From a virus, in the IMG/VR virus record IMGVR_UViG_3300032157_000002, positions 17,327 to 81,326 of that record: 64,000 nucleotides of DNA; one strand, given 5' to 3'. The notes under the pieces are model-generated. The model was given only the letters and a program-made list of their open reading frames with translations, did no database searches and was not told where the DNA came from. Position numbers and translations under genes: made by a program. Below are positions 42,370 to 43,168 of the stretch, piece by piece (positions within the stretch are counted from its first letter, which is position 1; every line of letters begins with the position of its first letter).

Positions 42370-42398
42370 TTGAACGGGAAAGCGATTTCGCCTATATT
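42370..42398 (+). promoter_or_regulatory. sigma70-type promoter for guide/tRNA operon
   Basis: TTGAAC-N17-TATATT. Confidence 0.7.
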
Positions 42399-42409
42399 AA
42401 CGGGAAATG

Positions 42410-42640
42410 CGGTGCCCAACATGTACGTGATAGCCATGCAATACATGGCGCCGTTCCCCAATTGCCGAGCCCAGTGCGATTCTGGCGCAAGCCCATGCTT
42501 ATCGTGGCTCGGCATTGCCTTGAGAAACTGAAGATCAGCAGCCCAAGTCAAGCATGATATCCATCAAACTCCTGGCTGCATAAGATGACGACACAAGTGG
42601 CCCAAAGAGAACATGATACCCAACATGAATGTGGCCACTT
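42410..42640 (+). ncRNA. TIGR-like array (4 units)
   Basis: Units 42410-42453, 42463-42514, 42538-42579, 42595-42640, all exact CCA-N9-TG-loop-CCA-N9-TG. Confidence 0.88.
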
Positions 42641-42646
42641 ATGAAT

Positions 42647-42721
42647 GCCGCATTAGATCAGTGGCAGATCGCAGCTTTGGTAAAGCTGAGGCCGATGGTT
42701 CAATTCCATCATGCGGCACCA
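42647..42721 (+). tRNA. tRNA-Thr(GGT)
   Basis: Cloverleaf, TT-GGT-AA, CCA. Confidence 0.93.
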
Positions 42722-42725
42722 GAAT

Positions 42726-42832
42726 TGCGAAGCGCTCCCCGGTGGTTTTAGGCGGGTGCCGTTGAGGATCATCGAAATTCAGGCATGCCGGCCTAGGCTA
42801 ACGGCATGGCGGTCGGGAGGGCTTCGCAACCA
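42726..42832 (+). ncRNA. 107-nt CCA-terminated structured RNA
   Basis: TGCGAAGC-G-CTCCC / GGGAG-G-GCTTCGCA-A-CCA terminal stem between two tRNAs. Confidence 0.6.
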
Positions 42833-42834
42833 CC

Positions 42835-42908
42835 GTCGGCCTAGCTCAAGCGGTCAGAGCGCCGCTCTCATAAGGCGGAGGTTCCCGGTTCGAGTCCGGG
42901 GGTCGATA
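42835..42908 (+). tRNA. tRNA(CAT), elongator Met or Ile2
   Basis: CCGCT-CTCATAA-GGCGG; no encoded CCA. Confidence 0.85.
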
Positions 42909-42909
42909 C

Positions 42910-42983
42910 GCCGGGATAGTTCAGTGGTAGAACAGCGCCTTCGTAACGCGACAACTGGGGTTCGATTCCCCGTCCTGGCACCA
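42910..42983 (+). tRNA. tRNA-Thr(CGT)
   Basis: Acceptor/T arms good; anticodon stem has only 3 WC pairs. Confidence 0.8.
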
Positions 42984-43060
42984 GCCGATCTAGCTCATCG
43001 GGTTAGAGCATCCGCCTTGTAAGCGGGAGGTGAGGGGTTCGAGTCCTCTGATCGGCACCA
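42984..43060 (+). tRNA. tRNA-Thr(TGT)
   Basis: Cloverleaf, CT-TGT-AA, CCA. Confidence 0.93.
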
Positions 43061-43062
43061 AT

Positions 43063-43168
43063 TTGCGGCCCATGCAAGAGGTGAAGGCCTATCTTCAATC
43101 CTTGGCCGCAACAGAAACCGACGCGCCCAATATACCTGTGATAGCCTGACAAGTCTGGCGCGTCGGTT
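43063..43168 (+). ncRNA. TIGR-like array (2 units, second box CCT)
   Basis: TTGCGGC-CCA-TGCAAGAGG-TG...TG-GCCGCAA (degenerate); GACGCGC-CCA-ATATACCTG-TG-ATAG-CCT-GACAAGTC-TG-GCGCGTC. Confidence 0.65.

What the first reader, a model, noticed from the sequence alone, without database searches (positions are those of the whole stretch)
42370..43168. Pure ncRNA operon between scaffold and capsid: promoter, 4 guides, tRNA, mimic, 3 tRNAs, 2 guides
Seen: about 800 nt containing all three RNA classes, including all three Thr isoacceptors and a 107-nt CCA-ended RNA. It is part of a 6.7-kb island separating scaffold from capsid. Inference: guides, mimics and tRNAs form one co-processed programme.
Basis: partly seen in the sequence, partly recalled or inferred. 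Interest (0 to 1): 0.7.

Follow-up and report, generated by a model that had tools for sequence, protein, structure and literature searches.

The report
Phage guide-RNA hairpins embedded among tRNAs
This 800-base stretch of a 102-kb phage genome packs six hairpin guide RNAs of the recently described TIGR-Tas system, four tRNA genes and one tRNA-like RNA behind a single promoter-like site, which suggests the phage matures its guide RNAs with the cell's tRNA-processing enzymes.

Summary
Window 42370-43168 (+) holds a sigma-70-like promoter, four hairpins, tRNA-Thr(GGU), a 107-nt CCA-ended structured RNA, tRNA-Met/Ile2(CAU), tRNA-Thr(CGU), tRNA-Thr(UGU) and two more hairpins. Gaps between elements are 0-23 nt.

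The "guides" are units of a known system, TIGR-Tas stem-loop arrays (Faure 2025; Xu 2026 preprint). Each unit reads: variable palindromic stem | CCA + 9-nt spacer A + UG | short loop | CCA + spacer B + UG | stem.

- The phage encodes one TasA, a Nop-domain protein with no nuclease domain. Its family profile hits PDB TasR at E=6.5e-22, and Foldseek ranks TIGR-TasR/TasH first.
- tasA lies 59 kb away, outside the window.

Two things differ from described TIGR loci. About 46 units are scattered over the whole genome rather than flanking tasA. Seven abut same-strand tRNAs, against 0.9 expected. A related 99-kb phage shows the same tRNA-unit junctions.

The likely mechanism is a polycistronic tRNA-guide transcript cut by tRNA-processing RNases. 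This is inferred, not shown. Spacer targets and the mimic's role remain unknown. I rate it a new organisational variant of a known kind.

The parts
42201..42362 (+). Conserved part of a small membrane-protein ORF (context). The ORF formally runs on to 42557, over the promoter and units U1-U3.
   Evidence: Residues 4-53 match the 54-aa ORF of relative L003 (E=9e-16). In L003 the ORF stops 3 codons after the shared PW motif.
42370..42398 (+). Sigma-70-like promoter TTGAAC-17-TATATT. The predicted start lies near 42405.
   Evidence: A near-identical TTGACG-17-TATATT sits 1 nt upstream of the unit+tRNA cluster at 3705(-). Four of 21 ncRNA cluster starts have such a site within 120 nt, against about 0.6 expected.
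42409..42454 (+). TIGR stem-loop unit U1: stem GCGGUGCC/GGCGCCGU, CCA, spacer A ACAUGUACG, UG, loop AUAG, CCA, spacer B UGCAAUACA, UG.
   Evidence: CM R1 hit, 27.8 bits, E=7.7e-4. Stem and flanks.
42463..42514 (+). TIGR unit U2, long-loop type (GGC-GCAA-GCC). Spacers GUGCGAUUC and UGCUUAUCG. 9-bp stem.
42538..42579 (+). TIGR unit U3. Spacers AGUCAAGCA and UCAAACUCC. 6-bp stem.
   Evidence: CM 43.7 bits..
42595..42640 (+). TIGR unit U4. Spacers AAGAGAACA and ACAUGAAUG. 8-bp stem AAGUGGCC/GGCCACUU, with CUU at its 3' base. It ends 6 nt before the tRNA.
   Evidence: CM 45.8 bits, the best in the window..
42647..42721 (+). tRNA-Thr(GGU), CCA encoded.
   Evidence: ARAGORN. Rfam tRNA 69.5 bits.
42726..42832 (+). 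The 'mimic': a Y-shaped 107-nt RNA. It has an 8-bp acceptor-like stem stacked on a 5-bp helix, two inner hairpins and a 3' A-CCA. It is not a tRNA.
   Evidence: MFE -55 kcal/mol, z=-4.0. No Rfam hit. No relaxed-ARAGORN tRNA call. No paralogue or homologue.
42835..42909 (+). tRNA with anticodon CAU (elongator Met or Ile2; not an initiator type). No CCA is encoded. It abuts the next tRNA with no spacer.
42910..42983 (+). tRNA-Thr(CGU), CCA encoded.
   Evidence: Orthologue present in L003.
42984..43060 (+). tRNA-Thr(UGU), CCA encoded.
   Evidence: Orthologue present in L003.
43063..43111 (+). TIGR unit U5, a variant. Inner box C reads CCU and the second spacer is 12 nt. It starts 2 nt after the tRNA's CCA.
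   Evidence: CM 22.3 bits, E=0.013. Sequence.
43116..43168 (+). TIGR unit U6, a variant. 12-bp stem, inner box C CCU, second spacer 8 nt. It ends at the stop codon of a convergent ORF.
   Evidence: CM 22.5 bits, E=0.011..
3654..3705 (-). Related cluster: promoter-like site, then one TIGR unit, then tRNA-Trp, Met, Ala, Asp and Ile (3632-3148).
21900..22232 (+). Related cluster: tRNA-Arg(CCG), two units, tRNA-Pro(UGG)-like (22090-22162), one unit.
48232..48479 (-). Related cluster: tRNA-Ser(UGA)-like (48380-48479), one unit (48314-48367), tRNA-Cys (48232-48306).

Best explanation
The region is a polycistronic non-coding RNA operon of a phage that carries a TIGR-TasA system.

The six hairpins are stem-loop tigRNAs. 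Each has a variable palindromic stem that closes a 30-nt loop. The loop holds two roughly 9-nt spacers, each preceded by box C (CCA) and followed by box D (UG).

The single TasA of the phage lies at genome positions 586-1626 on the minus strand, 59 kb from this region. By homology to characterised TasA proteins, it would bind each unit as a dimer. Spacer A and spacer B would then pair with opposite strands of an 18-bp DNA target. Because TasA has no nuclease domain, the expected outcome is binding or transcriptional repression, not cleavage.

The new inference concerns biogenesis. In this phage, guides are transcribed together with tRNAs and with tRNA-like CCA-ended RNAs. They would be released by the host's tRNA-maturation enzymes (RNase P at tRNA 5' ends, then 3' trimming). 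tRNAs and the mimic would act as punctuation.

What is shown: the anatomy of the units, the TasA homology and fold, the co-occurrence of units with tasA across genomes, and the enrichment of units next to tRNAs.

What is inferred: co-transcription, the processing route, TasA loading, repression, and any role for the mimic.
For: Unit anatomy:
- Invariant CCA and UG flank two 9-nt segments of variable sequence that are G-poor (15% G).
- The same UG...CCA frame surrounds both the stem and the loop, as described for tigRNA edge and loop elements (PMC12045711, sections read).
- Stems covary: 99.1% paired, 42 double changes against 8.8 in shuffles.

TasA:
- The family profile hits PDB 9mty TasR at E=6.5e-22, TasH at 8.7e-11 and IS621 at 0.0025.
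- The AF2 model has pLDDT 90.8. Foldseek's top hits are TIGR-TasR and TasH.
- There is one copy in the genome, and it has no nuclease domain.

Co-occurrence with tasA:
- Records carrying a tas-like gene (G000-G004) all have units.
- The roughly 100-kb portal relatives G005-G007, which lack tasA, have none.
- Most prophage tasA loci in Alphaproteobacteria and other bacteria carry 1-6 units near tasA.

Operon:
- One strand, 0-23 nt gaps, a promoter-like site 10 nt upstream of the first stem, and convergent ORFs downstream.
- The layout recurs at 3705(-) with a near-identical promoter.

tRNA linkage:
- 7 of 46 units lie within about 30 nt of a same-strand tRNA, against 0.92 expected (0 of 2000 permutations reached 7).
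- In relative L201, tRNA-Cys is followed by 4 units, and tRNA-Ser(UGA) is followed by a unit with no gap.

Published function:
- TasA acts as an RNA-guided repressor, and the RNase that matures stem-loop tigRNAs is unknown (10.64898/2026.09.09.750476).
Against: - There are no transcript, end-mapping or binding data.
- tasA is 59 kb away, and only 1 of 46 units adjoins it. Described arrays flank tas.
- No target was found for any spacer pair. In the phage's own genome and in 2 Mb of other phage DNA, best matches equal those of shuffled controls.
- The published CUU processing motif is present at only 12 of 46 stem bases, and at only U4 within this region.
- U5 and U6 have a non-covarying inner box C (CCU) and may be decayed.
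- The promoter match alone is at chance level.
- An ORF formally overlaps U1-U3.
- Stems have almost no G-U pairs (4 of 289 pairs). That would also fit a DNA-level palindrome.
Confidence: 0.6

Rival explanations
1. The hairpins are genuine tigRNAs, but their adjacency to tRNAs has no mechanistic meaning. Units, tRNAs and tRNA-like RNAs would simply accumulate in the same dispensable non-coding islands (morons). Each would be expressed or processed independently, for example at the published CUU or flank signals, or by TasA-dependent protection.
For: - Most units (39 of 46) are not next to tRNAs. They sit in ordinary intergenic gaps or in a tRNA-free 1-kb array.
- Stem-loop tigRNAs from other systems mature in E. 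coli without any tRNA context.
- The syntenic site in relative L003 has the three Thr tRNAs but no units. The units therefore come and go as separate cassettes.
Against: - The enrichment next to tRNAs was computed against intergenic space only and is about 7-fold.
- Junction gaps are 0-22 nt, and the layout recurs in four clusters here and in L201.
- No separate promoter-like sites lie inside the cluster.
Confidence: 0.25
2. The hairpins are not guide RNAs. They would be generic structural elements: terminators, mRNA-stabilising or REP-like palindromes, or RNase sites.
For: - They are intergenic, co-oriented with genes and often sit at gene 3' ends.
- Stems are nearly perfect Watson-Crick.
Against: - There is no U-tract after the stems.
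- Loops are a constant 30 nt with invariant CCA/UG frames and exact 9-nt variable segments.
- They occur in tas-bearing records and not in the tas-less relatives searched.
- The pattern is almost absent from 0.95 Mb of comparable phage DNA.
Confidence: 0.05
3. The units act mainly at the DNA level. The palindromes would serve as recombination or insertion hot spots that shuffle cassettes, which would explain the mosaic differences from L003. This is not exclusive of the RNA role.
For: - Relative to L003, the window differs by three discrete blocks: U1-U4, mimic plus the CAU tRNA, and U5-U6.
- Stems are nearly perfect palindromes.
- How TIGR units arise is an open question.
Against: - There are no target-site duplications or conserved ends at block borders.
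- Orientation follows transcription.
- GNRA tetraloops occur in the long-loop type, which is an RNA feature.
Confidence: 0.1
4. The 107-nt 'mimic' is a decayed or highly divergent tRNA gene with no function of its own.
For: - It sits between tRNAs and has an acceptor-like stem plus A-CCA.
- The genome holds other aberrant tRNA-like genes: Tyr(GUA)-like at 45061-45150, Ser(UGA)-like at 48380-48479 and an odd Pro(UGG) at 22090-22162.
Against: - It has no D arm, anticodon arm or T arm.
- It folds much better than shuffles (z=-4.0), which argues for a maintained structure.
Confidence: 0.3

Closest known systems
TIGR-Tas systems, stem-loop array type with TasA (Faure et al. 2025, PMC12045711; Xu et al. 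2026 preprint, 10.64898/2026.09.09.750476)
   Same: - Variable palindromic stems, two roughly 9-nt spacers, box C (CCA) and box D (UG) at both the stem and the loop, and an A-rich or tetraloop-like linker.
- A Nop-domain Tas protein without a nuclease domain.
- Occurrence in phages.
   Different: - About 46 units per genome, against roughly 7 per described stem-loop array (17,756 tigRNAs in 2,559 arrays).
- Units are scattered over about 100 kb rather than flanking tas.
- Units are interleaved with tRNA genes and CCA-ended tRNA-like RNAs.
- The CUU processing motif is mostly absent.
- Two loop types coexist with a single TasA.
Plant dicistronic tRNA-snoRNA genes processed by RNase Z (Kruszka et al. 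2003, listed as ref. 66 of PMC12045711; details from my own knowledge)
   Same: A box C/D-type guide RNA is transcribed with a tRNA and released by tRNA-processing enzymes. tigRNAs are evolutionary relatives of box C/D RNAs.
   Different: That system is eukaryotic and nuclear, with K-turn box C/D RNAs that guide RNA methylation. Here the setting is a phage, the guides target DNA through TasA, and processing has not been demonstrated.
Phage T4 tRNA cluster with stable RNAs species 1 and 2 (rnaC, rnaD) (my own knowledge, not tested here)
   Same: Small stable RNAs of unknown function are co-transcribed and co-processed with phage tRNAs.
   Different: There is no sequence relation. T4 has no tigRNA-like units.
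IS110 bridge RNA with its recombinase
   Same: Guide segments sit on both sides of an internal loop closed by a stem. The protein shares the Nop/Transposase_20-like RNA-binding domain.
   Different: There is no DEDD/RuvC domain. The RNAs have one loop each, not two, and there are many units instead of one.
Engineered polycistronic tRNA-gRNA (PTG) arrays for CRISPR multiplexing (my own knowledge)
   Same: The design principle is the same: tRNAs serve as cleavable spacers that release guide RNAs.
   Different: PTG arrays are synthetic and use Cas9 guides. The arrangement here would be a natural counterpart, if the processing is confirmed.

Membership tests
TIGR-Tas (stem-loop array type) | A Tas protein with a Nop domain is encoded by the same element. 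| tested here: met
   Protein P0001 (genome 586-1626, minus strand). Its family profile hits 9mty TasR at E=6.5e-22 and TasH at 8.7e-11. Foldseek's top hits are TIGR-TasR and TasH. It is single-copy.
TIGR-Tas (stem-loop array type) | Each unit carries two spacers of 8-12 nt (typically 9) with variable sequence. | tested here: met
   19 parsed units have exactly 9+9 nt. U1-U4 are 9+9, U5 is 9+12 and U6 is 9+8.
TIGR-Tas (stem-loop array type) | Box C (CCA) precedes and box D (UG) follows each spacer, with the same motifs at the edge and the loop. | tested here: met
   The CCA and UG columns are invariant. Exception: in U5 and U6 the inner box C reads CCU.
TIGR-Tas (stem-loop array type) | Variable but consistently palindromic edges form a stem. 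| tested here: met
   99.1% of cells are paired, with 42 double-change cells against 8.8 in shuffles.
TIGR-Tas (stem-loop array type) | Units lie next to or inside the tas gene. | tested here: not met
   This cluster is 59 kb from tasA, and only the unit at genome 1663-1709 adjoins it. This is an organisational feature, not a mechanistic one. Relatives L201 and L204 also have units 5-7 kb from tasA.
TIGR-Tas (stem-loop array type) | CUU motif at the stem base, marking the processing site. | tested here: inconclusive
   Present at 12 of 46 units against an 8.4% background. Within this region only U4 has it.
TIGR-Tas (stem-loop array type) | Units are transcribed, processed into discrete RNAs and bound by Tas, and they guide DNA binding. 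| not testable with these tools
   This needs RNA-seq, pull-down and EMSA.
tRNA (tested for the 107-nt mimic) | Cloverleaf with D, anticodon and T arms. | tested here: not met
   No Rfam tRNA hit even at E<=10. No call by ARAGORN at a relaxed threshold. Only the acceptor-like stem and the A-CCA tail are tRNA-like.
Archaeal/eukaryotic box C/D sRNA | RUGAUGA and CUGA boxes forming K-turns. | tested here: not met
   The motifs here are CCA and UG. No Rfam snoRNA hit.
IS110 bridge RNA system | A DEDD (RuvC-like) recombinase domain plus a single two-loop RNA at the element's end. | tested here: not met
   The protein aligns only to the Nop/Tnp part: chain residues 133-296 of TasR, with a weak Transposase_20 hit. 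Its N-terminus is helical. There are many one-loop units.
CRISPR array | Conserved direct repeats that separate spacers. | tested here: not met
   Stems differ between units and only 2-3-nt motifs are conserved.
Intrinsic terminator / REP element | A short loop with a U-tract (terminator), or a conserved repeat sequence (REP). | tested here: not met
   Loops are 29-35 nt with no U-tract, and the terminator scan does not call them.

The most novel reading that the evidence does not exclude
This phage uses a natural 'polycistronic tRNA-guide RNA' design. About 46 stem-loop tigRNAs are dispersed through early, middle and late transcription units. They would be excised by RNase P and tRNA 3'-processing enzymes, with real tRNAs and purpose-built CCA-ended tRNA mimics serving as punctuation. 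Examples of such mimics are the 107-nt RNA here and the ACCA-tailed minihelices in the array at 32568-33555. If so, this would identify the long-sought host RNase pathway for stem-loop tigRNA maturation. It would also show that one TasA can be fed by a genome-wide, stage-specific guide repertoire.
Probability: 0.35. Interest if true: 0.75.

Novelty: new variant of a known kind. Interest (0 to 1): 0.55.

Why it matters
TIGR-Tas was described only in 2025. Three questions remain open in the papers read here: which RNase matures stem-loop tigRNAs, what the natural targets are, and how units arise.

- **Maturation.** A phage whose guides are wedged between tRNAs at gaps of 0-22 nt gives a direct, testable hypothesis: maturation depends on RNase P and tRNA 3' processing.
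- **Detection.** The genome shows that looking only around tas genes can miss most guides. Here 45 of 46 units lie far from tasA.
- **Origin of units.** The presence or absence of units at syntenic sites, compared with L003, gives material for studying how units are gained.
- **Practical use.** A natural tRNA-punctuated guide array is a template for multiplexed expression of TIGR guides.

Tried and rejected
- **H/ACA-like pseudouridylation pocket or single-strand bipartite target.** I searched for rc(B)-gap-rc(A) and the reverse order in the phage genome. Only the hairpins' own antisense matched; everything else equalled shuffled controls. No pseudouridine synthase or fibrillarin turned up among 40 proteins scanned.
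- **TIGR-mode targets (spacer A and B on opposite strands, both orders).** I searched the phage's own genome and 2 Mb of other viral loci. The best match was 15-17 of 18, the same as shuffled spacers. I did not scan the 596-Gb genome collection. By my arithmetic an 18-mer would give about 17 chance hits there.
- **Pairing between spacer A and spacer B, or direct-repeat relatedness between them.** Neither was found.
- **G-U versus A-C test of the transcribed strand.** Inconclusive, 4 against 6.
- **RNase III sites, attC-like sites, REP/MITE elements, N4-type hairpin promoters, CRISPR-repeat mimics.** The anatomy does not fit any of them.
- **Close relatives through the scaffold protein.** None found.
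- **The long-loop pattern in viral contigs.** No hits.
- **The short pattern in viral contigs.** Mostly chance singletons. Re-scanning the fetched loci did reveal the real clusters L114, L115, L155 and L188.
- **Whole-record scans of L199 and L201.** Not possible, because the records are not held.
- **Homologues of the mimic.** None by blastn in phage records, the own genome or 2.4 Mb of fetched loci. The nhmmer attempt failed on an input-format error.
- **A 'class' of CCA-ended RNAs.** A genome-wide scan gave 26 candidates. By my rough estimate about 14 would arise by chance. Only 42726-42832 and 32848-32920 fold clearly better than shuffles. The mimic 'class' is therefore only weakly supported.
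Full report
**Source and context.** The window is bases 17327-81326 of a 102,270-bp IMG/VR virus record estimated at 91% complete. The region lies after a P22-like portal gene (38540-40813) and a 458-aa ORF in the scaffold position (40825-42201). That ORF has no Pfam or PHROG hit. The major capsid gene starts at 48941 (Phage_capsid_3 positions 2-126).

On the + strand, 42370-43168 contains these elements in order:
- TTGAAC-17-TATATT at 42370-42398;
- four hairpins at 42409-42454, 42463-42514, 42538-42579 and 42595-42640;
- tRNA-Thr(GGU) at 42647-42721;
- a 107-nt structured RNA ending in A-CCA at 42726-42832 (MFE -55 kcal/mol, z=-4.0);
- a CAU-anticodon tRNA at 42835-42909;
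- tRNA-Thr(CGU) at 42910-42983 and tRNA-Thr(UGU) at 42984-43060;
- two more hairpins at 43063-43111 and 43116-43168.

Gaps between elements are 0-23 nt, and the next ORFs are convergent. One caveat concerns ORF 42201-42557, which overlaps the promoter and three hairpins. Only its first 53 residues are conserved with a 54-aa protein of the close relative L003 (E=9e-16), so the tail is probably read-through.

**Anatomy of the hairpins.** All copies share one plan. A GC-rich stem of 6-14 bp has a different sequence in every copy. The loop is usually 30 nt and reads CA-N9-UG-(NNNN or GC-GNRA-GC)-C-CA-N9-U. The last stem C completes the first CCA, and the first G of the 3' strand completes the last UG. 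Each of the two helices, the stem and the mini-loop, is thus framed by 5'-UG...CCA-3'. Two 9-nt segments of unconstrained sequence that are G-poor (15% G) connect them.

A covariance model built from ten copies finds 38 matches in the window. I judge 34 of them true. Together with one further copy found by pattern and eleven in the rest of the genome, this gives about 46 units, of which 45 are intergenic. The stems covary strongly: 99.1% of cells are paired, with 42 double-change cells against 8.8 in shuffles. That alignment was fitted to the model, so it leans towards the structure. The pattern is essentially absent from 0.95 Mb of portal-related phage loci.

**Identification.** A pattern scan of viral contigs, re-screened for real stems, found clusters of the same hairpins in other phage records (L114/L181, L115, L155/L104, L188). 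In each case they sit next to a 260-346-aa protein.
- The L114 and L188 proteins are homologues of the L115 protein.
- The L155 protein has a weak Pfam Transposase_20 match and matches the family profile.
- The window's genome encodes a homologue at genome 586-1626 on the minus strand.

This led to the TIGR-Tas literature. [quoted passage not shown] In those arrays variable palindromes replace edge repeats. In TasR, both edge and loop elements 'start with UG and end with CCA'. That is the frame derived above from this genome alone.

The phage protein is a Tas protein.
- A profile of its family hits PDB 9mty (TasR) at E=6.5e-22, TasH at 8.7e-11 and IS621 at 0.0025.
- Its AF2 model (pLDDT 90.8) has TIGR-TasR and TasH as the best Foldseek matches, followed by Prp31, IS110 recombinases and Nop5.
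- It aligns only to the Nop part and has no nuclease domain, so it is a TasA. It is single-copy.

**Co-occurrence.** All records with a tas-like gene (G000-G004) carry units. The roughly 100-kb portal relatives without tasA (G005-G007) carry none. TasA homologues in Bosea, Microvirga, Methylobacterium, Brevundimonas and other bacterial genomes mostly have 1-6 units around the gene. The same distribution points to an alphaproteobacterial host.

**What differs from the described systems.**
- Published arrays were sought within about 5 kb of tas. They average about 7 units per stem-loop array.
- Here only one unit adjoins tasA. The other 45 are spread over about 100 kb, in early, middle and structural regions.
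- Seven units lie within about 30 nt of a same-strand tRNA, against 0.92 expected for random placement in intergenic DNA (0 of 2000 permutations reached 7).

Four mixed clusters exist in the window:
- promoter-unit-five tRNAs at 3705-3148 (-);
- tRNA-Arg, two units, tRNA-Pro-like, one unit at 21900-22232 (+);
- the region under study;
- Ser-like tRNA, one unit, tRNA-Cys at 48479-48232 (-).

A related 99-kb contig (L201, TasA 54% identical) has tRNA-Cys followed by four units and tRNA-Ser(UGA) followed by a unit with no gap. Neither the TIGR-Tas paper nor the 2026 preprint mentions tRNA linkage. The first paper cites plant tRNA-snoRNA dicistrons only as an analogy for clustered snoRNAs.

**Mechanism.**
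- By homology, a TasA dimer binds a unit. Spacers A and B pair with opposite strands of an 18-bp DNA site. Without a nuclease the complex represses transcription.
- By inference from the layout, the promoter at 42370 drives one transcript of about 760 nt. RNase P cuts at the 5' ends of the four tRNAs, and probably of the acceptor-like mimic. 3' trimming then frees U4, U5 and their neighbours.
- The RNase that matures stem-loop tigRNAs is explicitly unknown in the literature, so this layout offers a concrete hypothesis.
- The published CUU motif is enriched but in the minority (12 of 46 against an 8.4% background).

**The mimic.** It has an 8-bp acceptor-like stem stacked on a 5-bp helix, two inner hairpins and a 3' A-CCA placed 2 nt before the next tRNA. 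It therefore has the geometry expected of an RNase P substrate. It is not a tRNA and has no homologue in anything searched. ACCA-tailed minihelices recur in the 150-nt repeats of the tRNA-free array at 32568-33555 (z=-4.6 for one copy). This fits a punctuation role but proves nothing. A genome-wide scan for CCA-ended stems is close to chance overall.

**Comparison with L003.** This relative has a portal 80% identical. At the syntenic site it has the small ORF followed directly by Thr-GGT, Thr-CGT and Thr-TGT. It has no hairpins, no mimic and no CAU tRNA. The extra material in the window therefore consists of three discrete blocks. L003's record is only 50% complete, and no tasA was found in it.

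**Unresolved.** No spacer pair has a target above control level in the phage itself or in 2 Mb of other phage DNA. The host is unknown. U5 and U6 carry CCU at the inner box C and may be weak or decayed.

**Verdict.** The 'guides' are stem-loop tigRNAs of a known system. The tRNA-embedded, genome-wide organisation is a new variant, and it makes the open question of tigRNA maturation testable.

Noticed in passing
window 48941-50838 (+): The major capsid gene is split. ORF 48941-49354 matches Phage_capsid_3 positions 2-126. Residues 207-435 of ORF 49522-50838 match major-head-protein PHROG 334 positions 125-380. The roughly 790-nt gap holds a sub-threshold group I intron match at 49995-50116 (27.8 bits, E=7.9e-5). 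This is probably an intron in the capsid gene.
   Followed up: partly
window 32568-33555 (-): A 1-kb non-coding array lies on the strand opposite the flanking terminase-like and downstream genes. It holds about 11 TIGR units. Several units are embedded in repeats of about 150 nt that also contain two hairpins, the second ending in ACCA (32848-32920, z=-4.6).
   Followed up: partly
window 45061-45150 (-), 48380-48479 (-), 22090-22162 (+), 20046-20121 (+): These are aberrant tRNA-like genes that standard ARAGORN missed. They comprise a Tyr(GUA)-like RNA with a canonical T arm but no D arm, a 100-nt Ser(UGA)-like RNA (tRNA-Sec model 29.6 bits), a Pro(UGG) with an odd T loop, and a further tRNA hit found only by Rfam.
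   Followed up: partly
3' flanks of units across the genome, for example window 8058, 8118, 9902, 24399, 24511, 48575: About a third of the units are followed directly by a C-rich run (CCCCU-like). This differs from the published CUU motif and was not tested statistically.
   Followed up: no
L115:2612-3436 (-); L203:10043-10247: In other phages the units lie inside open reading frames. One ORF reads through two units in L115, and two units sit within tasA in L203. This agrees with the intragenic tigRNAs reported in the 2026 preprint.
   Followed up: no
window 8065, 14703, 42463, 48314, 48522: Two loop types coexist with a single TasA: a 6-nt G-NNNN-C loop and a 10-nt GGC-GNRA-GCC mini-hairpin.
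   Followed up: no
window 45990-46535 (-): An HTH-HNH homing-endonuclease-like gene sits inside the minus-strand tRNA island, between the Leu/Arg tRNA cluster and downstream ORFs.
   Followed up: no
L205:9451-10821: In a relative from an NCBI assembly, a TnpB-like gene (OrfB_IS605 / Cas12f1-like_TNB) lies 3 kb downstream of tasA. Two RNA-guided systems are therefore neighbours there.
   Followed up: no
genome 11362-12408 (+), outside the window (L076): The early region, on the same side of the genome as tasA, also encodes an MT-A70 family methyltransferase, RecT, Gp157 and SSB. Two AAA ATPases lie in the window.
   Followed up: no
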